Source of the DNA: an uncultured Gammaproteobacteria bacterium
GTDB taxonomy: Bacteria; Patescibacteriota; Patescibacteriia; Magasanikbacterales; UBA922
Assembly (NCBI GenBank): GCA_964522435.1
Contig: CAZFUL010000001.1
Coordinates: forward strand, 117,075 to 181,074
Length of the DNA stretch: 64,000 bases
Direction of reading: 5' to 3'
Under the pieces are notes generated by a model. That model did not search any database, had not been told where the DNA came from, and saw nothing but the letters and a program-made list of their open reading frames with translations. Position 1 is the stretch's first letter. Each line of letters begins with the position of its first letter. Shown piece by piece: positions 1,961-27,374 of this stretch. The translations under genes were made by a program, and so were the position numbers.

Positions 1961-2062
1961 TTGCTATACTTGCTTTATCTATACAGAAAATGATCGACCA
2001 TTCCTAACAAGAGTACATGAGGAATTGGCTCGATACTTAACTATCGTTGTAATACTCTTTGT

Positions 2063-2224
2063 ATGAATGATAAAACCTTACGCCATCTTATTGCAGGTCT
2101 TGTCACCGCCGCGGGCATTGTTATTTACCTTCAAGGCTATGTCTCTGGGGCGCGCGGTTGGTGGTTGACTATTGTTACCTTAATCGGGGTTTATCTTATT
2201 GTGTATAAATTAGTTGAAGCCTAA
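2063..2224 (+). CDS. Small hydrophobic protein (53 aa, about 2 TM)
   Basis: ATG-initiated ORF MNDKTLRHLIAGLVTAAGIVIYLQGYVSGARGWWLTIVTLIGVYLIVYKLVEA. It is below the 60-aa cutoff of the ORF track. It lies in the intergenic gap between secF and the next gene. Confidence 0.3.
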   Translation: MNDKTLRHLIAGLVTAAGIVIYLQGYVSGARGWWLTIVTLIGVYLIVYKLVEA

Positions 2225-2239
2225 TAACGGCATGTTGGT

Positions 2240-3610
2240 ATGCAAATTGGTCCGGTGTTTATTGATATGTCCTATCTGCAAGGTCTTTTGGATCGTGGCT
2301 TGTTTGGTATATTAGGCGAATTATTTATTCTTGGAGGATTTTTACTCTTTGTTTGGGTGTGTTTCTTTTTTGCTTTATCCTATTATCAAGAATATCGAGA
2401 AAATAAATTTACTGCAGATTGGCGATGGGTGGTATTAGCCGTAGACATTCCTCCGTTAAATGTACAAACACCCAAAGCCATTGAACAAATGTTTGCGCAC
2501 TTGGCGGGGGCATTTGATAAACCTGGAATAAAAGATAAGTTTCGTGGGGGCTATAAACAGCGCTGGTTTAGTTTTGAAATTATTAGTATCGAAGGCTATA
2601 TTCAATTTGTGATTCGCACAGAGGCTGCGTTTCAAAAATTGGTAGAAGCGGCATTATATGCCCAGTATCCTGATGCCGAAATTACAGAAGTAGAAGATTA
2701 TGTACAAGGATTACCAGATACCTTTCCAGATAAAACCTATGACATGTGGGCAGCTGACTTTGGTTTAGCCGAAAACGATGCCTTTCCTATCCGCAGTTAT
2801 CATGATTTTGAACATAGTATTTCTAAAGATACGGTGTTAAAAGACCCCATGGGAGCATTTTTAGAAAGTTTTAGCCATATTGGTCCAGGAGAACAAATGT
2901 GGTTTCAGATTATGATTGAGCCAATTGATAATGGCTGGAAAGATAAAGCAATTAAAAAAATTAAAGAACTTATTGGAGAAAAAGAAAAAGCAAAAACCAG
3001 TCCGCTTCAAAAATTATTAGATGTGCCTATTCAGACCGTTGGCTTATTAAGTGATCAGATTTACGGCGCTGTGGAGCGTGGTGGGGCAAAAGAAGAAAAA
3101 GGAGATAAAAATGAATTGCGCTATCTTACCCCAGGACAAAGTAAATTAGTAGAAGCCATGGAACAAAAAATTTCCATGATCGGGTTTAAAACAAAAATTC
3201 GCGGCGTGTATATTGCGCGTAAAGAAGTCTTTAAGCCAGAACGTGGCGTGCCTGCCCTTATTGGGGCAATGAATCAGTTTAATATTCCTACCTCCAATTC
3301 AATTGTGCCAAAATCAGGTGCGTCAAGTAATGAAAAAAAGACCCTGTTTATGATGGCCTATAAAAAGCGAAAATTAAAAATTGGTGCAAATCCATTTGTC
3401 TTGAATGTGGAAGAATTAGCAACCATTTGGCATTTCCCCATGTCTCATGTAAAAACGCCTATGGTGCAAAAAGTGGAAACCAAACAATCAGAGCCTCCTA
3501 TTGGTTTACCTATTGAGCGTGTTGATGCCCCAATTATTGCGGAAAAAAAGAAAAAAACAGAAAGTAGCACCGATGCCTTTGGCTACTCAAGTGATATGCA
3601 TTTTGGATAG
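2240..3610 (+). CDS. Hypothetical membrane-anchored protein (N-terminal TM helices, large soluble domain)
   Basis: 456-aa ORF with host-like AT-rich codon usage. No family recognised from sequence alone. Confidence 0.6.
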   Translation: MQIGPVFIDMSYLQGLLDRGLFGILGELFILGGFLLFVWVCFFFALSYYQEYRENKFTADWRWVVLAVDIPPLNVQTPKAIEQMFAHLAGAFDKPGIKDKFRGGYKQRWFSFEIISIEGYIQFVIRTEAAFQKLVEAALYAQYPDAEITEVEDYVQGLPDTFPDKTYDMWAADFGLAENDAFPIRSYHDFEHSISKDTVLKDPMGAFLESFSHIGPGEQMWFQIMIEPIDNGWKDKAIKKIKELIGEKEKAKTSPLQKLLDVPIQTVGLLSDQIYGAVERGGAKEEKGDKNELRYLTPGQSKLVEAMEQKISMIGFKTKIRGVYIARKEVFKPERGVPALIGAMNQFNIPTSNSIVPKSGASSNEKKTLFMMAYKKRKLKIGANPFVLNVEELATIWHFPMSHVKTPMVQKVETKQSEPPIGLPIERVDAPIIAEKKKKTESSTDAFGYSSDMHFG

Positions 3611-3616
3611 TCAATA

Positions 3617-3695
3617 AAAAAAACCGTTCCACTCTCCCTCGAAAATACTCGTATAGATAAAGTACTTTCGGTGGCGTTGGAACGGTTTTTTTGTT
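3617..3695 (+). terminator. Composite hairpin terminator (long stem aaccgttcca...ggaacggtt followed by T-run)
   Basis: Inverted repeat enclosing an inner hairpin, followed by tttttttg. Confidence 0.45.
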
Positions 3696-3722
3696 CACTG
3701 CCCCCGTTGTTTTTGTCGTCGG

Positions 3723-3908
3723 TCACTTGCGGCGTTTGGGCATCGTGTTTAAGGCAAATGCGCCAGAAATCACGAATAACGTGAGAGAAATATAGGCAAT
3801 CCACTCGGCCAGCCGAGGGAAGCCCAGGCCTTTGGTCGGCAGTGACAGCCAGACCGTAGCGAAGGAAAGCGCAAATGCTTTTGCGCTGATTCTGTTGATA
3901 GTTTCCAT
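3723..3908 (-). CDS. Small 2-TM membrane protein (61 aa) encoded in a G+C-rich islet
   Basis: Strong SD ggagga 6 nt upstream of the ATG on the minus strand. Local GC is about 50% against about 35% in the flanks. Hydrophobic profile with a basic C-terminus (MPKRRK). Confidence 0.45.
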   Translation of the reverse strand: METINRISAKAFALSFATVWLSLPTKGLGFPRLAEWIAYISLTLFVISGAFALNTMPKRRK

Positions 3909-4013
3909 CGATATCCTCCATCCTGTTGGGGGTGTAGGGCTATGCTAATAGCTCTTTTGCTTCTTGTCAACTGCTTGATTTTTTCCTCATGTTTCGCTAG
4001 TATCAATGCTATT

Positions 4014-4988
4014 ATGTGGGTAAACAATATTTTAAAACAAAAAAAACATATTCTTGCCTTGTCACCTATGGCAGACATGACGGATTCTTCGTTTTGCCAA
4101 ATGGTACGCCAAATTGGGGGAGCGGATGTCGTATTTAGAGAAATGGTAAGTAGCGAAGCCATTGTCCGAGAAAATGCCAAAACAATTGGCATGACTGATT
4201 TTGTGGAAGCGGAGCGTCCTATTGTGCAGCAAATTTTTGGCTCTGATCCACTCATTATGGCAAAAGCCGCTGAGATTGTGATGCAGCATGCCGCGCCAGA
4301 GGGGATTGATTTAAACATGGGTTGTCCGGTATATAAAATTACGAGCAATTTTAATGGTTGTGCTTTGATGAAAGATCCAGAACGGGCTGCCGCAATTATT
4401 AAAGAAATTAAACAAGCCATTGGTGATACGCCAGTTTCGGTAAAAATTCGTTTAGGGTGGAGCGATCCAGATGATTTTAAAAAATTTATCCCGGTTATAG
4501 AACAAGCGGGTGCAAGCTTAATTACCGTGCATGGCCGCACCAAAGCGCAAGGCTATAGTGGTAAAAGTGATTGGCAACGGATTGCACAAGCAAAAAAAAT
4601 TGCCACTGTGCCGTTATTAGCGAATGGCGATATTCATGAATGGCATCAGGTTACTGAGGCGCTTGATATTACGGGAGCTGATGGGGTACTCATTGCACGA
4701 GGTGCCTTGGGGAATCCTTGGTTTTTTCAACAATATCTCAAACAAGAGGGGAGTATTTCATTAGAAGAAAGAAAACGAGTGGTACTTGCCCATGCGCAGT
4801 TGCATGTACAACAATATGGAGAGCGAGGCATGGTAACCTTTCGTAAACATTTGGCCTGGTATTTTAAAACAAGTAAAATCGGATTTGAAATTCCAGGTAT
4901 TAAAGAATGGCGGATGAGAGCGATGCAGGTGGAGACCTTGGTAGAATTGCAAGGCTTGTTGCAAGAGCTCGTAGGCGAATCACTATAG
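4014..4988 (+). CDS. dus: tRNA-dihydrouridine synthase (Dus family)
   Basis: LSPMADMTD motif (LAPMAGxTD), FMN-binding TIM-barrel motifs and NMGCP. The real start is probably ATG 4014 or 4068 rather than 3942. Confidence 0.85.
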   Translation: MWVNNILKQKKHILALSPMADMTDSSFCQMVRQIGGADVVFREMVSSEAIVRENAKTIGMTDFVEAERPIVQQIFGSDPLIMAKAAEIVMQHAAPEGIDLNMGCPVYKITSNFNGCALMKDPERAAAIIKEIKQAIGDTPVSVKIRLGWSDPDDFKKFIPVIEQAGASLITVHGRTKAQGYSGKSDWQRIAQAKKIATVPLLANGDIHEWHQVTEALDITGADGVLIARGALGNPWFFQQYLKQEGSISLEERKRVVLAHAQLHVQQYGERGMVTFRKHLAWYFKTSKIGFEIPGIKEWRMRAMQVETLVELQGLLQELVGESL

Positions 4989-5051
4989 GGGGTTCTCTAC
5001 TTTATTAGTCTTTTTTTACTTATTTTAGCAAAATTTAATAATATATATCCC

Positions 5052-5079
5052 AAAAGCCTCTTGACAAAAGGCTTTTTTT
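5052..5079 (+). terminator. Hairpin aaaagcc(11 nt)ggctttt plus T-run after dus
   Basis: Seen in sequence. It overlaps the promoter below. Confidence 0.5.
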
Positions 5080-5089
5080 GTGCTATTAT
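5061..5089 (+). promoter_or_regulatory. Sigma70-like promoter TTGACA-17-TATTAT
   Basis: Perfect -35 TTGACA (5061-5066), 17-nt spacer and -10 TATTAT (5084-5089). It reads into GC-rich islet B and the ORF at 5790. Confidence 0.55.
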
Positions 5090-5255
5090 GTTTCGTTATC
5101 GTCGTATTTCATAACAGCAGCTATTGCCTGTTATTATGAAAACCGACGAGTCGTGTGTTACGACTTACGGTCCAGCGGCATTCCTGCCGCGAGCTGCTAT
5201 AACTGACCCAAGCAGTGTAAATAAATGGGTCCCCGTGGCATGAAGGAGAATACCC

Positions 5256-5516
5256 ATGCCCAATCCCGGTGAAACCCCCAGCACCCCTGCCACCACCTCC
5301 ATGGTGGCGCCCGTCCAGCCGGCCGCCGAGGTGCAGCCGGATCTGGCGTCTGTCGCCCCGGCCGAAGAGCCCCCCACCGTCACGGCGGTGGCCTCTGATA
5401 CCGACGGTAACGGGCTCACCGACCGCGTCGTCATGACCGGGGGGGGGATCATCCCCCTGGGAATCGCGGGAGGGGGGTCCCGTCCCGATCGTCCCCGGAT
5501 GCGCGGTAGCAACTAG
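5256..5516 (+). CDS. Possible small Pro/Ala/Gly-rich protein in a very GC-rich islet (uncertain coding)
   Basis: AAGGAG lies 8 nt upstream of the ATG. The region is over 70% GC and has long ORFs in several frames, so the coding call is weak. Confidence 0.2.
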   Translation: MPNPGETPSTPATTSMVAPVQPAAEVQPDLASVAPAEEPPTVTAVASDTDGNGLTDRVVMTGGGIIPLGIAGGGSRPDRPRMRGSN

Positions 5517-5789
5517 CCCCTCGGCGGGACCTCTTTATATGTACGCGTTCTGCGTATAAAGAGTTCATCTTCTGAACGCAGCACCTGGCCGGTCGCGCTT
5601 TTATAAGCGACCCTGCACAAGCGCTTGACTGTCATCCTCTGACATTCGCGCGACCGGCCCCACAAAAAAGTACATCAATAGTGGTGTGCTTTTTTGTTTT
5701 TATGAGGAATACACTGATATGTAACCAAATTGAATTAAAGGAAAAATAATGATAGTCTAACAAATGAAATTGTATTTAATCGTATTATT

Positions 5790-7181
5790 ATGTTTGCAGA
5801 GTTTAGACCAGAATATTTTTCTATTACAGATATTCATCAATTACCTGCTCAGGAACAGCAACGTCATATTGAATATTATTTAGAAACGAATATACGAGAA
5901 CTTATTCAATCTCGAGGAATACTTTCTGATGAAAGTTATGTGTTTTTAATGGATAGCTTAATGGAAAGGGGGGTATTGGATGCGGTTTTCCGTGATGGAG
6001 AAGATGCTCTGAATCCTCGAGATATACAATATTTAAGTCGATCTGAAAAAGGAAAAGAACTGCTCTTACATTTTTTTTCTAAGATTATGGTGTTGTTTAC
6101 TCCTGAACAATTAATTGATCTGTTAAAACAACAACAAGCCGATGAACAACTTATAGGAACTATTATTGAAAAAGTTCGTTCTCTTGAAAAGAGAAATGAG
6201 TTGGTTCAAGAAGTCTATACAGAATTTTCTAGGGAACCACAGACAGATATATTGGGAATAATAGTCAGCCTATACGAAAAAGGGATATTAACGGCTCGTC
6301 CTATATTTTGGGAAGAACATTCAGAAGATTTATTGCGGTTTAGTGTTCGTACGGGGAAGTCTTTTTCATTAACCTCTTTAGGTTATGTGTATGATACAAG
6401 CCAAAATCGTGAAAGACTTATTGCGGAAATACAAACAGAAAAGACCATTGCTAAAATTGTTATTAATAATGAAGCCGTTTCTGTATTGGAAGTTCTATTT
6501 ATTGCTCCTATAGATCAACAAGATGTCCCTCTTTCGACGGGGAATAATTTTGAAAATCCTAAGGCAGAGTTATATACAAAAGATAGCCCGGAACCAGGAT
6601 CTTCTTTTTGTGTTGGAGGAGCAAATACGTCAGAAGACATAAACAGTTTAGAGAAAATTAACAGTATTGCTATTGATGAAATCGAACGAGTAATGAAATC
6701 ACGAGGTGATCTTGATATCCAAGCGGGAGATTTAAAATTTGCTATTGCTGATAGTGGGTATCTTGGTGCTGAAGATAGCCTTAGGGAAACATTATTAGCT
6801 GATAATGAAACAGTTCAAACATTAGGGACAAATCATCAAACATTAGCTGTAGATTTATTTATTTTTCAGCGCTTAGCATATTTACTTCCTTCTGGTGAAT
6901 CAAAATCTCATATTGATTGTGTGTATGCTGGTGTTCCACTTCGTATTGATTGTAAACTAAGAACGCCAAGTCCTATTGATTCCCCTTTTGGAGATGAGAC
7001 TAGAGGACGTCAAGATATTATTGTAACAAACAAGAAAACAGGAAAATCAATATTTTTTTCTGAGCTACATCCATATATGATGTATCGATATGGGTTTTAT
7101 GAAGGAAAAGGTTGTTCCTATCGTTTAAATCCTAAAGATGTATTCGAGTTATTAAAAACCGATTTAGAAGAAAAAAAATAG
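5790..7181 (+). CDS. Hypothetical protein (463 aa), no recognisable domain
   Basis: Long ATG ORF with host-like composition. No family motifs recognised. Confidence 0.6.
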   Translation: MFAEFRPEYFSITDIHQLPAQEQQRHIEYYLETNIRELIQSRGILSDESYVFLMDSLMERGVLDAVFRDGEDALNPRDIQYLSRSEKGKELLLHFFSKIMVLFTPEQLIDLLKQQQADEQLIGTIIEKVRSLEKRNELVQEVYTEFSREPQTDILGIIVSLYEKGILTARPIFWEEHSEDLLRFSVRTGKSFSLTSLGYVYDTSQNRERLIAEIQTEKTIAKIVINNEAVSVLEVLFIAPIDQQDVPLSTGNNFENPKAELYTKDSPEPGSSFCVGGANTSEDINSLEKINSIAIDEIERVMKSRGDLDIQAGDLKFAIADSGYLGAEDSLRETLLADNETVQTLGTNHQTLAVDLFIFQRLAYLLPSGESKSHIDCVYAGVPLRIDCKLRTPSPIDSPFGDETRGRQDIIVTNKKTGKSIFFSELHPYMMYRYGFYEGKGCSYRLNPKDVFELLKTDLEEKK

Positions 7182-18785: not shown

Positions 18786-18876
18786 TGGCGGAAGGTGAGG
18801 GATTCGAACCCTCGATACCCTTTCAGGTATACCACCTTTCCAAGGTGGCGCACTCGACCAACTATGCGAACCTTCC
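18786..18876 (-). tRNA. tRNA-Ser (anticodon GGA), class II with long variable arm, CCA encoded
   Basis: Manual cloverleaf: acceptor GGAAGGT/ACCTTCC, D-stem GCA/TGC, anticodon stem CCACC/GGTGG with loop TTGGAAA, variable arm ATACC-TGAAA-GGGTAT, T-arm GAGGG-TTCGAAT-CCCTC. Confidence 0.85.
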
Positions 18877-19241: not shown

Positions 19242-20048
19242 ATGATTCCACCAAACTATAAAAGCTACTTTGAAATAAACCACTCTAATATTGAACGAGT
19301 GCAAATCTTTTTAAGTAGCAAATATATTTTCACTATCGGGATTTACAAAAAGGAAATGGGATTTTACATTGATTTTCCTAAATTTAACAAGTCAAACACG
19401 ACAGTTGCAAAATATATATTGCCCAAAGGACAAAGCTATATTGAAAAACTTGATCCCACGGCAACCGAACAAAAAAATATTTGTCCGAAATTAAGTTTTC
19501 ATGAATCAGGCTGGGTACTACTATCCAAGAGCGGATTTTTCTTTGATAAAACAATATCTCGCCAAAAAACCAATGATTCAATATTTAAAAATGATGGTAC
19601 GCACGTATTTACCATATCATTGCAAAATCCTAATTTTCTTCCCGACGAACCTCCTGCGATGAAAACACGCACCCGTGATATTGCATTACCGTCTTCTCCA
19701 CTTCCTAATGCAATCAAATTCGTAGGAAATTTATGGAAAAAGAGTGATCTTCAAGAAAGTTTTAAAGAATTTGGAATGCTAAAAAATGAAACTGAGTATC
19801 CCATAATATGGCCACGCAACGATGGAAGTAATTTGGGTGATATTGTGTTCATATTAAAATTTTGCCACTTAGTAGATTCAGAACCACTTTATTTGAGTGT
19901 CCGATGTATGATTATTCCAATTATGGATAAAGAATATTCAAAAGGAACTTTATTGACGTTGATGAGTGGCTTCATTTTTGGTGATGTGATCAATACTGAA
20001 AAAGAGACTGATTTCATCAGTTTTATTGCAAAAAGAGAACGAAATTGA
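19242..20048 (+). CDS. Hypothetical protein (268 aa), first gene of the defence island
   Basis: ATG ORF with no recognisable motif. Lies between tRNA-Ser and the HTH/methyltransferase genes. Confidence 0.5.
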   Translation: MIPPNYKSYFEINHSNIERVQIFLSSKYIFTIGIYKKEMGFYIDFPKFNKSNTTVAKYILPKGQSYIEKLDPTATEQKNICPKLSFHESGWVLLSKSGFFFDKTISRQKTNDSIFKNDGTHVFTISLQNPNFLPDEPPAMKTRTRDIALPSSPLPNAIKFVGNLWKKSDLQESFKEFGMLKNETEYPIIWPRNDGSNLGDIVFILKFCHLVDSEPLYLSVRCMIIPIMDKEYSKGTLLTLMSGFIFGDVINTEKETDFISFIAKRERN

Positions 20049-20100
20049 CATAAAGTAGGCAGAAGAGTAACCTACATTAAAACATATACATTATATTGGT

Positions 20101-20310
20101 ATGCCAAATACAAAAAATACTATTGCAAAAAACATTAAACGTTTGCGAACTGAACAGCAATTATCGCAGGATCGTTTATCAAAATTAGCCGACCTTTCTT
20201 TGAATACGATTGTTACTGTTGAAAGTGGTGCGAATGAAAATCCCACAATCGATACACTAGTAAAAATTGCATCTGCTTTCGGTGTTGGTGTAGATGATTT
20301 AATGAAATGA
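20101..20310 (+). CDS. XRE-family HTH transcriptional regulator (69 aa), possibly a controller for the adjacent R-M genes
   Basis: HTH_3 pattern IKRLRTEQQLSQDRLSKLADLSLNTIVTVESG. Stop is 2 nt before the next ORF. Confidence 0.75.
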   Translation: MPNTKNTIAKNIKRLRTEQQLSQDRLSKLADLSLNTIVTVESGANENPTIDTLVKIASAFGVGVDDLMK

Positions 20311-20311
20311 T

Positions 20312-20980
20312 ATGGCCAACCAGATCATTTCAAAAAAACGTGTCACAGATCATGGTGAAGTGTTTACTTCTGAGCGAGAAGTGAATGCTATGCTGGATCT
20401 TGTAAAACAGGAAACAGAACGTATAGAATCTCGTTTTCTGGAACCTGCGTGTGGTACAGGTAATTTTTTGGATCCAATTCTTAGAAGAAAACTAGAAGTT
20501 ATAAGTAAGCGATATAAAAAAAGTCAGTTGGAATTTGAAAGAAACGGTGTCGTTACGATTGGGAGTATTTACGGTGTCGATATTTTACATGACAATGTCG
20601 TAGAGTGTAGAAACAGGTTGTTTGGTATCTTTGATTCTTGCTATACTGAATTGTATAAGAAAAAATGCACAGATGAATATCGTCGTGTTATACGTTTTAT
20701 TTTGGAGAGAAATATTTTACTTGGAGATGCACTAACACTCAAGACAGTGGGAAGTAAATCAGAGCCAATCGTATTTTCTGAGTGGTCTCTTGTGAGAGGG
20801 AGTGATATCAAACGTAGAGATTATGCCTTTGCTGAATTGATTCCAAATCAATCAAAAGAAAGTACATTATTTACTACAACACAAGTGTCCGATACAGGCT
20901 CTCCTGTATTTATACCAGAACCAAAAACTGAATTTCCTTTGACGCATTTTCTAAAATTACCGTATGAGACTACCCACTAA
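20312..20980 (+). CDS. N6-adenine methyltransferase N-terminal module only (motif X GEVFTS and motif I EPACGTGNFL, no NPPY): truncated paralog or accessory subunit
   Basis: Motifs read from the translation. Overlaps the full methyltransferase by 17 nt. Confidence 0.5.
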   Translation: MANQIISKKRVTDHGEVFTSEREVNAMLDLVKQETERIESRFLEPACGTGNFLDPILRRKLEVISKRYKKSQLEFERNGVVTIGSIYGVDILHDNVVECRNRLFGIFDSCYTELYKKKCTDEYRRVIRFILERNILLGDALTLKTVGSKSEPIVFSEWSLVRGSDIKRRDYAFAELIPNQSKESTLFTTTQVSDTGSPVFIPEPKTEFPLTHFLKLPYETTH

Positions 20981-22469
20981 CTACAATCCAGACGTACTCA
21001 CATGTTTGGCGAACTTGAGTAACGACGAGGTATTTACACCTCCTAGTTTGGTCAATGAGATTCTCGATCTTTTACCAAAAAAAATTTGGAAAAATAAACA
21101 TGCTAAATTTCTTGATCCTGTGACTAAAACAGGCGTATTTCTCAGAGAAATAGCAGCTCGATTGATTGATGGTCTTGAAAAAGAGATACCAGACAGACAA
21201 GAACGAATCAATCATATCTATACCAATCAGCTCTACGGTATTGCAATTACAGAACTCACTGCACTGCTTGCACGACGAAGTGTGTACTGCTCCAAAATAG
21301 CAAACGGAAAATACTCTATCTGTACGGAATTTACAGACGAACAAGGAAATATCCGTTTCAACAGGGTAGAGCATGAGTGGCAAGGAGAAAAATGTCGATA
21401 CTGTGGAGCAAGTAAATCAGAATATGATAGAGAAGATGCACTCGAAACACACGCCTATGAGTTTATTCATACCGATGATCCAAATAACTTGTATAACAAT
21501 ATGAAATTTGATGTCATCATTGGAAATCCACCGTATCAATTGAGTGACGCTGGACACGGTAGAAGTGCAAGTCCTATCTATCATAAGTTTATTGAGCAAG
21601 CGAAAAAGATGAATCCAAGGTATTTGACGATGATTATTCCTGCTCGTTGGTTTGCTGGTGGAAAAGGGCTTGATGAATTTCGTTCTGAAATGCTCGGTGA
21701 TAAGCGTATCCGAAGAATGGTAGACTTTGAAAATTCAAATGATGTATTTTCTGGTGTTGATATTGCTGGTGGTATTTGTTATTTCCTTTGGGATAGGGAT
21801 AATACGGGACTGTGTGAAGTAACTAATTTTATCAATGGTAAAGTAGAAAGTTCTTTGCGATATCTTGATGAGTTTCCAATTTTTATCCGTCATAGTAACG
21901 CAATTCCGATTATCAAAAAAGTGCTTGCAAAAAAAGAAAATGGTGGTAAGAATTTGAGTTCTGTGGTTTCTTCTCGAAAACCATTTGGTCTCCCCACAAA
22001 CTATCCACCAAAAAATTCTGGTGTACCTTGTTGGTTTATCCAAAAAATAGGTCTTAAATACGCAAGTAAAAAAGACGTTATCGATGATGTGGGGTTGTTG
22101 GATAAATGGAAATTGTTAATTCCTCCTGCTCCTATTGCTGGACAAACTGATTTTTCTAAACCAGTAGGCTTTTATTATGATGGAAATGTAAAAATAGCGA
22201 AACCGGGTGAGTGTTGTACTGAATCTTTTATTGTGGGTGGTGCTTTTGATACTAAAAAAGAAGTAGAATCGTTCAAAACATATTTGTTTACAAAAATTGT
22301 TCGATTTTTACTTTTACAAACAGTTGTATCCCAACATGTCACTAAAGATAAATTTATTTTTATACCAGATATCGGCAAATATGAGGGTGTTTTTACAGAT
22401 GAAATGTTATGTAAGCGATGGGGTATAACAAAAGACGAATGGAAGTTTATTGATTCACGCATTAAATAG
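20964..22469 (+). CDS. N6-adenine DNA methyltransferase, gamma-class, Eco57I-like
   Basis: Motif X EVFTPPSLVNEILDLL, motif I FLDPVTKTGVFL and motif IV NPPY (VIIGNPPYQ). C-terminal Eco57I-like region. Confidence 0.8.
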   Translation: MRLPTNYNPDVLTCLANLSNDEVFTPPSLVNEILDLLPKKIWKNKHAKFLDPVTKTGVFLREIAARLIDGLEKEIPDRQERINHIYTNQLYGIAITELTALLARRSVYCSKIANGKYSICTEFTDEQGNIRFNRVEHEWQGEKCRYCGASKSEYDREDALETHAYEFIHTDDPNNLYNNMKFDVIIGNPPYQLSDAGHGRSASPIYHKFIEQAKKMNPRYLTMIIPARWFAGGKGLDEFRSEMLGDKRIRRMVDFENSNDVFSGVDIAGGICYFLWDRDNTGLCEVTNFINGKVESSLRYLDEFPIFIRHSNAIPIIKKVLAKKENGGKNLSSVVSSRKPFGLPTNYPPKNSGVPCWFIQKIGLKYASKKDVIDDVGLLDKWKLLIPPAPIAGQTDFSKPVGFYYDGNVKIAKPGECCTESFIVGGAFDTKKEVESFKTYLFTKIVRFLLLQTVVSQHVTKDKFIFIPDIGKYEGVFTDEMLCKRWGITKDEWKFIDSRIK

Positions 22470-22477
22470 TTTTTTGT

Positions 22478-24994
22478 ATGATCAATCAAACTTTTTTCCC
22501 GCTTCGTCCAGAAGCTAAACCAACAATATATGTGTACAGATTCAAAGGTGTTAATACGCATGAAGGTCTTCTGAAAATTGGATATACTACGAGAAATGCT
22601 AAAGATCGTATCGCTGAACAGCTCACTACGAGTCGCCTTGAGCATGAAATTATTCTTGAAGAATCGGCGATGAGAAATGATGGTACTGCGTTTAGTGATC
22701 ACGATGTACATAGATATTTACGAAAAAACAATATTGAGCATGTAAATGGTGAGTGGTTCCGCTGTACGCTCAAAGATGTGAAATCTGCACTTGTAGCTAT
22801 TAAGTCCGGTGCCTTGAATGTAGAAAATAGAACACAGACTTTTGGTCTTCGCCCAGAACAAGAAAAGGCTATAGAAAAAACAATTACCTATTTCAAAAAT
22901 GTTAAAAAAGAAGGTGATAATAAAACACCACACTTCTTGTGGAATGCAAAAATGCGTTTTGGGAAAACATTTACTTCGTACCAGCTTGCAAAGAAAATGA
23001 ATTGGAAACGAGTACTCGTACTCACATTTAAGCCAGCAGTACAAAATGCGTGGGAAGAGGATCTCAAATCCCATGTTGATTTTGAAGGGTGGCAGTTTAT
23101 CTCACCAAATAGTCTCTCATACGAAGACGCTGATAAAGATAAACCACTTATTTGTTTTGGTTCATTTCAAGATTATCTGGGAAGAAACAAAAGTACAGGT
23201 GGTATTAAAACCAAAAATGAATGGGTACACACAACAAATTGGGACTGTGTCATCCTCGACGAGTACCACTATGGAGCGTGGAGAGAAAACGCAAAAGACT
23301 TGTTTGAGGCTGAAGAAAAACGTGTACAGCAAGATGAAGAGGGGGAAGGGCTTGAGTACTTTAGTGAAAGTGAAATGCCTATTACTACGGGGGCGTATCT
23401 GTATCTGTCGGGTACACCGTTCCGTGCGATTGCATCTGGTGAATTTATCGAAGAGCAAATTTTTAACTGGACATATTCAGATGAACAGCGTGCCAAAGAG
23501 CTGTGGCAAGGGGAGAATAACCCCTACGCATCACTACCTCGCATGGTGATGATGACCTATCAATTGCCCGATACTATTCGTGAAATTGCAATGGGTGGAG
23601 AGTTCAACGAGTTTGATCTCAACCTCTTTTTTTCAGCAGATGGGAAAGAAGAGCAAGCTCGCTTTACCTATGAAGATGAAGTTCAGAAATGGCTTGATCT
23701 GATTCGTGGGTCGTTTCAAGAGACAACAATTGATAACTTGAAACTTGGTGCAAAAAAACCACCACTTCCATTTTCTCATGCTCCGTTGCTGAGTGTATTG
23801 ACTCACACATTTTGGTTTTTACCGAGTGTGTCCTCTTGTTATGCGATGAAGAATCTACTCCAATCGAGACAAAACAAATTTTATAATGACTATAAAATCA
23901 TAGTAGCCGCAGGTAACAAAGCAGGGCTTGGTGCAGATGCACTCGAGCCTGTAGTCAAGGCGATGACACCTCCGCTTGAAACAAAAACAATTACACTCTC
24001 ATGTGGAAAATTAACGACGGGTGTTTCGGTAAAACCATGGACGGGTATTTTTATGTTGCGAAATTCTTCTAGTCCTGAAACATATTTTCAAGCCGCTTTT
24101 CGTGTACAGACACCATGGACGATCAAAAATCCAGACGGTAAGTCTCCTGATGAAGAAATGATACTCAAAAATGAGTGCTATGTGTTCGATTTTGCACCTG
24201 ATCGCGCGCTCCGACAGATTGCTGATTATAGTTGCCGTTTGAGTGTAGGGGACAAGAACCCAGAACAGAAAGTAGCAGAGTTTATCCATTTTTTGCCCGT
24301 TCTTGCGTATGATGGGAGTGCGATGAAACAGATTGATGCGGCTGGTATCTTGGATATGGCGATGAGTGGAACGACAGCGACACTGCTCGCTCGTCGTTGG
24401 GAAAGTGCCCTACTTGTAAACGTCGACAACTATACACTCAAACGCTTGATGGACAATGAAGATGCGATGAACGCCTTGATGAATATCGAGGGATTCCGCA
24501 GTCTCAATGCTGATATTGAAACGATTATCAACAAGTCAGAGGCTGTCGAAAAAACAAAAAAAGAAGCAAATGATAGAGAACTCACCAAAAAAGAAAAACA
24601 AGAACTCTCTGAGCAAGAAAAAGAGTATAAGATCGTGCGTAAACAGATTCAAGAGAAACTCATCAAGTTTGCTACTCGTGTGCCTGTTTTCATGTATCTG
24701 ACAGATTATCGTGAGAGAACTCTCAAAGATGTGATCACCCAATTGGAGCCTGGACTATTCAAAAAGGTCACTGGTTTAAGTGTGAAAGACTTTGAACTGC
24801 TAGTAAGTCTCAATGTGTTCAATAGTGCCCTCATGAACGATGCTGTATATAAATTTAAGCGATACGAAGACGCTAGTCTTAGTTATGCTGGTATCAGTAA
24901 GCACGAAGGAGAAAGTATTGGTCTGTACGACACTGTGATTCAACGAAGTGAGTTTGATCAGGTGTTTGAGAATACGGTAAAGTTGCAAACGTAA
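22478..24994 (+). CDS. T5orf172 (GIY-YIG-like) domain fused to ResIII / SF2 DEAH helicase (838 aa): putative restriction/translocase subunit
   Basis: N-terminus IYVYRF...GLLKIGYTTRNAKDRIAEQL...GEWF (T5orf172 hallmarks). LRPEQEKAI with Walker A FGKTFTS and motif II ILDEYHYGA. About 400-aa C-terminal region of unknown function. Confidence 0.75.
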   Translation: MINQTFFPLRPEAKPTIYVYRFKGVNTHEGLLKIGYTTRNAKDRIAEQLTTSRLEHEIILEESAMRNDGTAFSDHDVHRYLRKNNIEHVNGEWFRCTLKDVKSALVAIKSGALNVENRTQTFGLRPEQEKAIEKTITYFKNVKKEGDNKTPHFLWNAKMRFGKTFTSYQLAKKMNWKRVLVLTFKPAVQNAWEEDLKSHVDFEGWQFISPNSLSYEDADKDKPLICFGSFQDYLGRNKSTGGIKTKNEWVHTTNWDCVILDEYHYGAWRENAKDLFEAEEKRVQQDEEGEGLEYFSESEMPITTGAYLYLSGTPFRAIASGEFIEEQIFNWTYSDEQRAKELWQGENNPYASLPRMVMMTYQLPDTIREIAMGGEFNEFDLNLFFSADGKEEQARFTYEDEVQKWLDLIRGSFQETTIDNLKLGAKKPPLPFSHAPLLSVLTHTFWFLPSVSSCYAMKNLLQSRQNKFYNDYKIIVAAGNKAGLGADALEPVVKAMTPPLETKTITLSCGKLTTGVSVKPWTGIFMLRNSSSPETYFQAAFRVQTPWTIKNPDGKSPDEEMILKNECYVFDFAPDRALRQIADYSCRLSVGDKNPEQKVAEFIHFLPVLAYDGSAMKQIDAAGILDMAMSGTTATLLARRWESALLVNVDNYTLKRLMDNEDAMNALMNIEGFRSLNADIETIINKSEAVEKTKKEANDRELTKKEKQELSEQEKEYKIVRKQIQEKLIKFATRVPVFMYLTDYRERTLKDVITQLEPGLFKKVTGLSVKDFELLVSLNVFNSALMNDAVYKFKRYEDASLSYAGISKHEGESIGLYDTVIQRSEFDQVFENTVKLQT

Positions 24995-25259: not shown

Positions 25260-25640
25260 TTAGCCTTTCTTGAAATCGTTTCTTCCGACAATAAGTGAAA
25301 TCAATATTGCTGCAGATAATATGAGTCGATACCATACTGTGGTGCCTACTTGTGACAGATCGAGTAGGTGTGTTACTAACCCAAGGCTTACAAGTATTAA
25401 ACCAAGTGTATAAGCCCAATGTTTTGCTTTGAGCAAAAAACAGCCGATCAAAATACCTATAACGGCGGATATAATGTTGATGATTTGGGTCAACTCATTC
25501 GCCGTAGCTTGGAGACTTTCTGGTTCTATGGATGAGGGAGAACTTGTTAGATTTGTGAACGTGACAATCAAATTAATCAATCCTGCTATCATGAAGAGGC
25601 CTGCAGCAACTTTGATAGGGGAGGAAAGAGTATTACTCAT
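25260..25640 (-). CDS. Hypothetical small polytopic membrane protein (126 aa)
   Basis: Hydrophobic segments. ATG ORF on the minus strand between the helicase gene and the mrr cassette. Confidence 0.5.
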   Translation of the reverse strand: MSNTLSSPIKVAAGLFMIAGLINLIVTFTNLTSSPSSIEPESLQATANELTQIINIISAVIGILIGCFLLKAKHWAYTLGLILVSLGLVTHLLDLSQVGTTVWYRLILSAAILISLIVGRNDFKKG

Positions 25641-25765: not shown

Positions 25766-26653
25766 TTAAGTTTCTTCAAAAAAGTCTTCGTCTATTTCTT
25801 TTACTTCGTATTTATTTTTAACTTGTAACCCCACTCCATATTCGTGCATTAAATCAACAAGTTTTTTGCCGTCAATGAGTATTATCGAATGATGTGCCTC
25901 TCTTGCTTTGTGTATGGCAGATTCATCGAAAGAAGAAGTCGTGACAAAAACTCCTTTACTTGTATCTCCGCTCATTGCTCCTATAAAATTACGAATCTCT
26001 TTTTCTCTTATTTTATTTTCATTATAACGCTTAGCTTGGATATATATTTTTGCTAGGCCTAATTTGTCTTCGTTAATAATACCATCTATTCCTCCATCAC
26101 CACTTTTCGAAGTTTCGATAAAATCTCCGTAGCCCATCTTATTTAATAGTAGCAAAACAACTTTTTCAAAATAATAAGGGTCTATTTCTTTAAGTCTTTC
26201 GAGAAGCTCATTTTTGACTTGCTTTTCAATAGCACTAAATCCCGAGTCAATCATATCTTGCGGAGAAGCATTTTCATCTTCCAAATCTATTTCAGAATCT
26301 TTTTCTTCTTTTTTTGCTTCCCTATGCGCTTGAAAATCAGGATCGTTAATTAAATCTGATAATGTTAAATTTCCACTCTTTACAACTTTTAAACCTTTTT
26401 CCGATATTTTTACCATCGCTCTTTCTGGTTGTTCAATCATTTTTGCCTGTTTGAGATATGCTTTTCCCCAGCCAATTCTATTTAATATTAGAATGTCTCC
26501 ACTCTTCGTCTTTTTTTCTAATAATTCTTCGCTCAAATTTGAATAATATTCATCCCGAACACGCTTTCGTAATTCGTTGTAATGTAAAATTTGACCATCG
26601 CTCAGTACGTTTAATATTGGTATAAATGTTTCGTGATATTTTGGTAGATCCAT
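25766..26653 (-). CDS. mrr: Mrr-family restriction endonuclease (type IV, modification-dependent)
   Basis: N-terminal winged-helix Mrr_N and C-terminal Mrr_cat motifs GDGGIDGI...IQAKRY. 295 aa. Confidence 0.8.
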   Translation of the reverse strand: MDLPKYHETFIPILNVLSDGQILHYNELRKRVRDEYYSNLSEELLEKKTKSGDILILNRIGWGKAYLKQAKMIEQPERAMVKISEKGLKVVKSGNLTLSDLINDPDFQAHREAKKEEKDSEIDLEDENASPQDMIDSGFSAIEKQVKNELLERLKEIDPYYFEKVVLLLLNKMGYGDFIETSKSGDGGIDGIINEDKLGLAKIYIQAKRYNENKIREKEIRNFIGAMSGDTSKGVFVTTSSFDESAIHKAREAHHSIILIDGKKLVDLMHEYGVGLQVKNKYEVKEIDEDFFEET

Positions 26654-26747: not shown

Positions 26748-26838
26748 AAATCATAGCAAATATAGTACGAAACACAAACCTTTGCTATACTTTTTTTAGT
26801 ATATCCTAGTATTATGCCCCCCTTAATTCCCTACACCC
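26748..26838. repeat. Direct repeat copy 2, carrying the promoter and start of the YgjP-like gene
   Basis: See copy 1. The ATG of ORF 26814 lies inside the repeat. Confidence 0.8.
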
Positions 26839-27374
26839 TGAAAAAAAACGCTAAGGCTAAGTACCTGCGTATTGTTATTAATAGGGATGCCACTGTTTCT
26901 GTGGTGGCGCCAACACGGGTGAGCATGAAAGAAATAGAACAATTTATTGCAGATAAAACACTGTGGATACAAAAGCACGTGAGAGCGTTTCAAAAAAAGA
27001 AAGAAGCCGTAACCCCCGTACTTCCTGTAGGGTTTTCTCGTACAGACTACCATTCCTGCGTGGCACGAGCCAGAAAATTAGTAAAAGATCGCTTGGCACA
27101 TTTTAATGCTATCTATCAATGTCATTTTGCTCGGGTGAGTATAAAAAAACAAAGCACGGTGTGGGGGAGTTGCTCGGCAAAAAAGAATTTGAATTTTAAT
27201 TATAAAATAGTCTTATTACCCCCACATTTAGCGGATTATATTATTGTGCATGAACTCTGTCATTTGAAAGAAATGAACCATGGCAAACAATTTTGGTTGT
27301 TGGTAGCAAAAACAATACCCGAACATAAACAATATAGAAAAGAATTAGTGGCCTATGAAAGATATTTTTCTTAA
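26814..27374 (+). CDS. DUF45 / YgjP-like metal-dependent hydrolase (HExxH)
   Basis: HELCHLKEMNH zinc-binding motif near the C-terminus. 186 aa. Confidence 0.7.
   Translation: MPPLIPYTLKKNAKAKYLRIVINRDATVSVVAPTRVSMKEIEQFIADKTLWIQKHVRAFQKKKEAVTPVLPVGFSRTDYHSCVARARKLVKDRLAHFNAIYQCHFARVSIKKQSTVWGSCSAKKNLNFNYKIVLLPPHLADYIIVHELCHLKEMNHGKQFWLLVAKTIPEHKQYRKELVAYERYFS

What the first reader, a model, noticed from the sequence alone, without database searches (positions are those of the whole stretch)
20312..22469. Tandem duplication of the methyltransferase N-terminal module: a 222-aa ORF with motifs X+I but no NPPY, overlapping the full methyltransferase
ORF 20312-20980 carries GEVFTS...EPACGTGNFL, the SAM-binding half of a gamma-class N6A methyltransferase, and then diverges and stops. 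The next ORF restarts 17 nt before that stop with its own motif X, motif I and NPPY. This could be a decaying duplicate (pseudogene), a regulatory SAM-binding subunit, or the product of a frameshift or assembly error that splits a longer gene.
Basis: seen in the sequence. Interest (0 to 1): 0.5.

Follow-up and report, generated by a model that had tools for sequence, protein, structure and literature searches.

The report
DrdVI-type split-methylase restriction system
The short "half methyltransferase" gene is not a decaying duplicate or a sequencing error. It is the conserved small subunit (M1) of a catalogued but little-studied restriction-modification system of the DrdVI type, so this locus is an ordinary new member of a known family.

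Summary
ORF 20312-20980 (222 aa) has intact methyltransferase motifs X, I, II and III but no NPPY. It overlaps by 17 nt a 501-aa Eco57I-family methyltransferase (20964-22469) that has its own N-terminal module and NPPY.

The pseudogene, frameshift and assembly-error readings are refuted.
- The 222-aa protein belongs to a very large family of about 210-290-aa proteins, roughly 60-70% identical over their full length.
- Against its closest relative dN/dS is about 0.10.
- In 75 of 80 species genomes it lies directly before the Eco57I-type gene, usually overlapping it by 2-29 nt and never fused in frame. A T5orf172 (GIY-YIG-clan) plus helicase gene normally follows.

The three window proteins are 41%, 47% and 56% identical to M1.DrdVI, M2.DrdVI and DrdVI of Deinococcus wulumuqiensis plasmid pDrdVI. 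REBASE and New England Biolabs papers call this a "split methylase" Type IIG system (m6A at GCAGCC).

Two points may be new.
- M1 carries the canonical AdoMet-binding residues. M2's own N-terminal module is degenerate: Lys in motif I and no motif II acid in any relative examined.
- Single-chain relatives join an M1-type N-half directly to an M2-type catalytic half.

I infer that M1 supplies AdoMet binding. Verdict: new member of a known kind, low to moderate interest.

The parts
20312..20980 (+). M1 subunit, 222 aa. It is the AdoMet-binding half of a gamma-class N6-adenine methyltransferase. Motif X (GEVFT) is at 20354-20368, motif I (LEPACGTGNFL) at 20438-20470, motif II (YGVDI) at 20570-20584 and motif III (LLGDAL) at 20717-20734. 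The conserved FSEW strand is at 20774-20785. There is no NPPY.
20964..20980 (+). 17-nt overlap between the M1 stop and the M2 start, consistent with translational coupling.
   Evidence: In 80 related loci the estimated M1-stop to M2-start distance is an overlap of 2-29 nt in 55 cases, with modes at 17, 14 and 11 nt.
20964..22469 (+). M2 subunit, 501 aa, an Eco57I-family N6-adenine methyltransferase. Its degenerate N-terminal module (DEVFTPP, FLDPVTKTGVFL, YGIAIT) covers about aa 19-105, 21018-21278. A Cys/His zinc-ribbon-like insert covers aa 109-147, 21288-21404. NPPY is at 21525-21536. The variable C-terminal target-recognition half covers about aa 241-501, 21684-22466.
   Evidence: Pfam Eco57I at 3.6e-42. 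47% identity to M2.DrdVI, E 2e-167. AlphaFold2 gives a complete seven-strand core. The best Foldseek matches are CamA, BrxX/PglX, LlaBIII and DrdV. Mosaic identity to the closest relative: 85-97% for aa 1-240 and 20-50% for aa 241-501.
22478..24994 (+). R subunit, 838 aa. A T5orf172/MUG113 (GIY-YIG-clan) nuclease-like domain covers aa 17-105, 22526-22792. It is fused to an SF2 (ResIII) helicase/translocase, whose Pfam match covers aa 123-279, 22844-23314.
   Evidence: Pfam. 56% identity over the full length to the DrdVI R protein. DrdVI is described as a fused translocase and REase with a GIY-YIG domain in PMC4996451.
20101..20310 (+). XRE-type HTH protein, 69 aa, control-protein-like. It ends 1 nt before the M1 start codon. 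It is an accessory peculiar to this locus, not part of the conserved cassette.
   Evidence: Pfam HTH_3 at 1.6e-11. PADLOC Control_protein at 2e-10. No homologue lies upstream of M1 in the other loci held at that point, L001-L093.
18786..18876 (-). tRNA-Ser(GGA). It marks the left edge of a low-GC island (about 34-37% against about 43-44%) that holds this cassette and an Mrr gene.
   Evidence: ARAGORN and the composition profile.

Best explanation
Genes 20312-24994 form a DrdVI-type restriction-modification cassette, which REBASE files as a Type IIG "split methylase". M1 (222 aa) and M2 (501 aa) together make the N6-adenine methyltransferase. The 838-aa GIY-YIG-like nuclease plus helicase is the ATP-driven restriction subunit.

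Shown here:
- Each of the three proteins is homologous to its DrdVI counterpart.
- The cassette and the M1/M2 overlap are conserved across phyla.
- M1 is under purifying selection.
- The C-terminal half of M2 is swapped between close relatives, as expected for a specificity determinant.

Inferred:
- M1 is the AdoMet-binding part of the enzyme. It keeps every canonical cofactor-binding motif (X, I, II, III).
- M2 supplies the catalytic NPPY loop, the rest of the Rossmann fold and target recognition.
- M2's own N-terminal module is a degenerate copy that probably no longer binds AdoMet normally and may serve as a scaffold.
- The 17-nt overlap couples translation of the two subunits.

The geometry by which M1-bound AdoMet would reach M2's NPPY site is unknown.
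For: - Homology to DrdVI on pDrdVI (L013): M1 41%, M2 47%, R 56%. The annotated gene order is the same.
- Fomenkov et al. [quoted passage not shown] PMC4996451 describes DrdVI itself as a fused translocase and REase.
- Cassette conservation: 75 of 80 species loci have M2 directly after M1. Of 49 loci with at least 5 kb downstream of M1, 44 have M1, M2 and R. The same order is seen in metagenome and plasmid loci.
- Complementary motifs: M1 motif II is D in 87 matches and E in 5, and FLEPACGxGNF is invariant. M2 motif I has Lys in 86 of 86 matches. The M2 motif II position is A/G/C/S in 61 of 61 matches, never acidic.
- Single-chain relatives P0288, P0304, P0314, P0320, P0343 and P0370 join an M1-type N-half (44-69% identical to M1 proteins) directly to an M2-type catalytic half that starts at FDVIIGNPPY. 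They lack M2's N-terminal module. An M1-type module therefore occupies the N-half position of an M2-type catalytic domain in these proteins.
- In the distant Lactococcus variant R and M2 are fused, yet M1 is still a separate gene and M2's motif I is again degenerate.
- dN/dS for M1 is about 0.10.
Against: - AlphaFold2 folds M2 alone as a complete seven-strand methyltransferase core, with its own N-terminal module in the canonical place at pLDDT above 90. That leaves no obvious slot for M1's strands.
- M2's N-terminal module is itself strongly conserved (DEVFTPP and FLDPxxKxGxFLRE are invariant), so it has some function and could still bind AdoMet in an unusual way.
- The papers I could read cloned M1 and M2 together. 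None reports that M1 is required.
- I could not model the complex, so the composite-site step is inference only.
- The single-chain proteins have not been shown to be active.
Confidence: 0.8

Rival explanations
1. M2 is a self-sufficient methyltransferase. M1 is an accessory AdoMet-binding subunit, either a cofactor sensor or an adaptor, that gates or couples the nuclease-helicase. This would resemble the AdoMet stimulation of cleavage in Type I, III and IIG enzymes. In this reading M1 does not contribute to catalysis.
For: AlphaFold2 predicts a complete methyltransferase core for M2 alone. M2's N-terminal module is strongly conserved. M1 stays a separate polypeptide even where R and M2 are fused. 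The four single-chain relatives whose contigs were examined have no R gene on the DNA held, although two of those contigs end close to the gene. A free M1 therefore seems to go together with the presence of R.
Against: M2 lacks the motif II acidic residue in every relative examined and has Lys in the glycine-rich motif I loop. The single-chain relatives replace M2's module with an M1-type module. That is what a catalytic, not regulatory, role for the M1 module would predict.
Confidence: 0.17
2. The short ORF is a decaying duplicate (pseudogene) of the methyltransferase N-terminus.
For: It lacks NPPY and the C-terminal half of the fold.
Against: There are thousands of full-length relatives at 60-70% identity, and many columns are invariant right up to the C-terminal tail. 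dN/dS is about 0.10. Its position in the cassette is conserved across phyla. It is present in the functional DrdVI clone.
Confidence: 0.01
3. A frameshift or assembly error has split one longer gene.
For: The two ORFs overlap in different frames. Single-chain relatives exist.
Against: M1's C-terminus and M2's N-terminus each align end to end with their homologues. The same split is found in 75 of 80 independent genomes, with an overlap in 55 of them. The single-chain forms lack about 175 residues of M2, so they are not the window's two ORFs read in one frame.
Confidence: 0.01

Closest known systems
DrdVI (M1.DrdVI, M2.DrdVI and DrdVI) of Deinococcus wulumuqiensis NEB 479 plasmid pDrdVI. REBASE Type IIG, GCAGCC, m6A (PMC6430315).
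   Same: The three-gene order is the same, and the sizes are similar (212/539/851 aa against 222/501/838 aa). Identities are 41%, 47% and 56% over essentially the full lengths. M2's motif I and II are degenerate in the same way: FLDPCTKSGVFL and FGIGIT.
   Different: M2's C-terminal half differs, so the recognition sequence is probably different. M1's FSEW is VVEW in DrdVI. M1 and M2 overlap here but are 8 nt apart in pDrdVI. The window has an extra HTH gene upstream.
MaeIV (M1.MaeIV and M2.MaeIV) of Methanococcus aeolicus. GCACY, m6A (PMC10113651).
   Same: The authors describe it as belonging to the same "split methylase/RM" family as DrdVI. M1 and M2 were cloned together and gave site-specific m6A.
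   Different: I had no MaeIV sequence here, so the relationship rests on the paper's statement alone.
Type ISP enzymes LlaGI and LlaBIII (PDB 4xqk).
   Different: Type ISP enzymes are a single polypeptide with an Mrr-type PD-(D/E)xK nuclease and one complete methyltransferase domain. Here there are three polypeptides, a GIY-YIG-clan nuclease and an extra half methyltransferase.
Single-chain Eco57I-family methyltransferases of 483-580 aa (P0288, P0304, P0314, P0320, P0343, P0370).
   Same: The N-half is 44-69% identical to M1 proteins. The C-half is 35-45% identical to M2 from NPPY onward.
   Different: They are one polypeptide, with no second N-terminal module, no zinc-ribbon insert and no R gene on the DNA held around the four that were looked up.
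Naturally split or heteromeric methyltransferases: M.AquI alpha/beta, and METTL3-METTL14 (from my own knowledge, not tested here).
   Same: The idea is shared: methyltransferase function divided between two polypeptides, or a pair in which one partner has lost a functional site.
   Different: M.AquI is a clean cut of a C5 methyltransferase with no duplicated module. In METTL3-METTL14 one subunit keeps both the cofactor site and the catalytic site. Here the intact cofactor motifs and the catalytic motif lie on different subunits.

Membership tests
DrdVI-type split-methylase R-M system (REBASE Type IIG) | A three-gene cassette in the order small M1 (about 210-230 aa), Eco57I-family M2 (about 500-540 aa), then a fused GIY-YIG-type nuclease and helicase (about 840-850 aa). 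| tested here: met
   compared with pDrdVI.
DrdVI-type split-methylase R-M system (REBASE Type IIG) | Full-length sequence homology of each protein to M1.DrdVI, M2.DrdVI and DrdVI. | tested here: met
   41% at E 4e-50, 47% at E 2e-167, and 56% at a reported E of 0.0.
DrdVI-type split-methylase R-M system (REBASE Type IIG) | Canonical motif I on M1 and the catalytic NPPY on M2. | tested here: met
DrdVI-type split-methylase R-M system (REBASE Type IIG) | M1 and M2 together give site-specific m6A on one strand of a short asymmetric site. | not testable with these tools
   Reported for DrdVI and MaeIV only. The recognition site of the window's system is unknown.
DrdVI-type split-methylase R-M system (REBASE Type IIG) | ATP-dependent restriction by the translocase-nuclease. 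| not testable with these tools
   Only the domain content was checked: T5orf172/MUG113 plus ResIII.
Type ISP restriction enzymes (LlaGI, LlaBIII) | A single polypeptide carrying an Mrr-type nuclease, helicase, methyltransferase and target-recognition domain. | tested here: not met
   There are three separate genes, and the nuclease domain is of the GIY-YIG clan. The system works like a Type ISP enzyme but is not a member.
Pseudogene or degraded methyltransferase | Relaxed selection, truncation relative to homologues, and sporadic occurrence. | tested here: not met
   dN/dS is about 0.10. Homologues have the same length. The position is conserved in 75 of 80 genomes.

The most novel reading that the evidence does not exclude
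M1 is more than the N-terminal piece of a cut enzyme. After a duplication of the AdoMet-binding module, the two copies degenerated in complementary ways: M1 kept the cofactor site and lost catalysis, while M2 kept catalysis and lost the cofactor site. The holoenzyme would then need an inter-subunit composite active site, or would use M1 as an AdoMet sensor that licenses methylation against restriction. Neither arrangement has been described for a DNA methyltransferase of an R-M system.
Probability: 0.2. Interest if true: 0.55.

Novelty: new member of a known kind. Interest (0 to 1): 0.27.

Why it matters
For annotation, the short gene should be called the M1 subunit of a DrdVI-like R-M system. 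It should not be called a pseudogene, a frameshift or a stand-alone "SAM-dependent DNA methyltransferase".

More broadly, the family is very widespread. More than 600 stretches matched in the collection of species-representative genomes, spread across most bacterial phyla, plus one from a Bathyarchaeia genome. Yet I found it in only three papers, and none gives biochemistry. The complementary motif pattern and the single-chain relatives yield a concrete, testable hypothesis for why the methylase needs two subunits. That would interest people who work on R-M enzymes, but it does not change any general picture.

Tried and rejected
- Sequence search of the Protein Data Bank: the M1 profile gave only weak motif-I-level hits, and M2 gave none.
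- NCBIfam gave no family-level hit for M1, M2 or R.
- PADLOC files M2 and R under a fused "REase_MTase_IIG" model (PDLC03626) and M1 only under generic methyltransferase models. There is no match to Hma, MADS, BREX or any other named defence system beyond motif level.
- A literature search for T5orf172, Eco57I and helicase together found nothing. "Split methylase" found only the M. aeolicus paper.
- An exact look-up of the window's own contig failed, so the source organism was not identified. The cluster look-up gave no names.
- I considered modelling an M1-linker-M2 chain with AlphaFold2.
- The promoter and terminator scan of the cassette was uninformative: 21 promoter-like sites against 21.7 expected.
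- I looked for a conserved control protein upstream of M1 in relatives and found none.

Full report
**1. The observation.**
ORF 20312-20980 (+) encodes 222 aa. Its motifs are:
- motif X, GEVFT
- motif I, FLEPACGTGNFL
- motif II, YGVDI
- motif III, LLGDAL

It has no [NDS]PP[YFW] motif. The next ORF starts at ATG 20964, 17 nt before the TAA at 20978-20980. It encodes a 501-aa protein with DEVFTPP, FLDPVTKTGVFL and GNPPYQ, and it matches Pfam Eco57I at E 3.6e-42.

The two N-terminal modules are significantly but remotely similar. BLASTP gives 34% identity over 77 aa at E 4e-7. hhalign between the two family profiles gives 92.5% probability, E 5e-7, over 85 columns. The aligned region ends at motif II.

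**2. The short ORF is not a pseudogene, a frameshift or an assembly error.**
The listed hits were 218-252 aa long and 59-86% identical over 95-100% of the query.
- An alignment of 33 of them is conserved to the C-terminal tail. FLEPACGxGNF, YG, NI..G.A and PI.FS.W are among the invariant columns.
- An exhaustive HMMER search of 1.84 billion representatives found 3,282 clusters at E ≤ 0.001. Nearly all of the listed ones are 200-290 aa.
- Against the closest relative (L094, 85% identical) Nei-Gojobori gives dN 0.091 and dS 0.88, a ratio of about 0.10.
Of these, 599 were confirmed by tblastn, from nearly every bacterial phylum plus one from a Bathyarchaeia genome.
- I analysed the 80 best loci. 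In 75 of them an M2 homologue directly follows M1. Of the other five, three run out of contig and two are degraded.
- The estimated M1-stop to M2-start distance is an overlap of 2-29 nt in 55 loci, a gap of 1-22 nt in 10, and an insertion of 107-1218 nt in 10. The two genes are never fused in frame.
- Of 49 loci with at least 5 kb downstream of M1, 44 carry M1, M2 and the nuclease-helicase.

**3. What it is.**
A tblastn search of plasmids with the short protein found the same cassette on Deinococcus wulumuqiensis NEB 479 plasmid pDrdVI. [quoted passage not shown]

Two other papers mention the family:
[quoted passage not shown] The window's three proteins are 41% (E 4e-50), 47% (E 2e-167) and 56% (reported E 0.0) identical to the three pDrdVI proteins, over essentially their full lengths. 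The window therefore holds a new member of this known family:
- M1, 20312-20980
- M2, 20964-22469
- R, 22478-24994 (T5orf172/MUG113 plus ResIII)

**4. How it probably works.**
M2 is the specificity subunit. Between the window and its closest relative, M2 residues 1-240 are 85-97% identical while residues 241-501 are only 20-50% identical. M1 (85%) and R (94%) stay close. This is the signature of a swapped target-recognition domain.

The role of M1 rests on inference from three results.
- **The two subunits have complementary motif patterns.** In the loci held, M1's motif II residue is always acidic (D in 87 matches, E in 5) and its motif I is canonical. M2 always has Lys inside motif I (FLDPxxKxG, 86 of 86). 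At the motif II position it has A, G, C or S (61 of 61), never the acidic residue that binds the AdoMet ribose in class I methyltransferases. The role of that acidic residue is established knowledge of the fold.
- **Single-chain relatives exist.** P0288, P0304, P0314, P0320, P0343 and P0370 (483-580 aa) have an N-half 44-69% identical to M1 proteins. It is joined directly to a C-half 35-45% identical to M2 from FDVIIGNPPY onward. They lack M2's own N-terminal module and its zinc-ribbon-like insert. In these proteins M1's FSEW hairpin and tail form a variable linker between motifs III and IV, and P0304 lacks that linker altogether. An M1-type module therefore occupies the N-half position of an M2-type catalytic domain in these proteins. 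The break point in the two-gene systems falls in a length-variable linker.
- **M1 stays separate in a distant variant.** In the Lactococcus cremoris pUC047G variant, R and M2 are fused into 1,461 aa. M1 is still a separate gene, and M2's motif I is again degenerate (ILEINSKTG).

Across the systems examined, each catalytic NPPY module comes with exactly one canonical AdoMet-binding module, either fused or as M1. I therefore favour M1 as the cofactor-binding part of an obligate M1·M2 methylase, with the short overlap giving coupled translation.

**5. What argues against this, and the main rival.**
- AlphaFold2 folds M2 alone as a complete seven-strand core, with its own N-terminal module in the canonical position (pLDDT above 90 for residues 30-100). 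The target-recognition half is poorly predicted, and the mean pLDDT is 61.
- M2's nearest solved folds are ordinary single-chain gamma methyltransferases: CamA, BrxX/PglX, LlaBIII and DrdV.
- M2's N-terminal module is also strongly conserved, so it does something.

The main rival is that M2 is self-sufficient and M1 is an AdoMet-binding accessory or sensor that couples to the nuclease-helicase. Supporting this, the single-chain relatives whose contigs I could examine have no R gene on the DNA held, although two of those contigs are short. The papers I could read cloned M1 and M2 together and do not report testing either alone. I could not model the complex.

**6. The "tandem duplication" idea.**
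Two N-terminal-type modules do sit in tandem. However, the M1 to M2 similarity (36 bits) is in the same range as each module's similarity to unrelated methyltransferase families. M1 scores 38.9 bits against PADLOC PDLC03313, and M2's module scores 34.2 bits against PDLC03338. A recent duplication is therefore not supported, and an ancient one can be neither shown nor excluded. The copy that looks degenerate is M2's, not the short ORF.

**7. Context.**
The cassette lies in a low-GC island (about 34-37% against about 43-44%) that starts at tRNA-Ser(GGA), 18786-18876, and also holds an Mrr gene. A 69-aa XRE-type HTH gene ends 1 nt before the M1 start codon. It has no counterpart upstream of M1 in the other loci held at that point, L001-L093.

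**8. Verdict.**
The locus is a new member of a known, REBASE-catalogued family. The complementary motif degeneration and the single-chain relatives are modest added value. Interest is low to moderate.

Noticed in passing
L015, L017, L020, L029, L033, L037, L040, L042, L054, L056, L057, L059, L063, L072, L073 and L009, between the M2 and R genes: In 24 of the 57 loci where the gap could be measured, 71-2975 nt are inserted between M2 and R. The recurring passengers are a roughly 340-410-aa protein resembling DUF1016/YhcG PD-(D/E)xK proteins (8 ORFs in 7 loci) and a roughly 285-aa protein of the Bro-N cluster (7 loci). L037 carries a protein with a Fic-like HPFxDGNGR motif, and L040 a protein that looks like an IS4-type transposase. 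Only the L009 Bro-N gene has a Pfam call on record; the other names are my reading of the sequences. Similar hitch-hiker genes are known inside Type I R-M operons.
   Followed up: partly
window 20101-20310, 20305-20330 and about 20055-20080: An XRE-type HTH (control-protein-like) gene ends 1 nt before the M1 start codon. An 11-nt inverted repeat, AAATGATATGG / CCAGATCATTT, spans that start codon. A GTAGG-N11-CCTAC repeat lies upstream of the HTH gene and could be an operator. None of the other loci held at that point (L001-L093) has this HTH gene upstream of M1.
   Followed up: partly
window 21684-22466 compared with L094 742-2253: M2 is a mosaic relative to its closest relative. Residues 1-240 are 85-97% identical and residues 241-501 are 20-50% identical, while M1 (85%) and R (94%) remain close. 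This indicates a recent exchange of the target-recognition half. The window's variant of that half is 75-82% identical in more than a hundred relatives from several phyla.
   Followed up: partly
window 25766-26653 (-), 25260-25640 (-) and 26814-27374 (+): An Mrr-family restriction endonuclease (Mrr_N plus Mrr_cat, E 5.6e-35) lies in the same low-GC island. Next to it are a small ORF that looks like a membrane protein and a 186-aa ORF with an HELCHLKEMNH zinc-hydrolase-like motif. Neither of these two was searched against any library.
   Followed up: no
window 19242-20048 (+): A 268-aa ORF lies between tRNA-Ser and the HTH gene. It has no hit that reaches a curated threshold in Pfam (one weak match, E 0.017) and none in NCBIfam or PADLOC. 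Whether it is real or belongs to the island is unknown.
   Followed up: no
M2, window about 21288-21404 (aa 109-147): The M2 family has a conserved Cys/His set (C109, H137, C144, C147) in an insert between motifs II and III. It looks like a zinc ribbon, and the single-chain relatives lack it. AlphaFold2 confidence is low to moderate across this stretch.
   Followed up: partly
L012 (Lactococcus cremoris pUC047G) 1970-7049: This is a distant variant of the system. M1 (230 aa) is followed by a 1,461-aa fusion of a helicase and an Eco57I-type methyltransferase. The N-terminal region of the fusion matches DUF4145 rather than T5orf172.
   Followed up: partly
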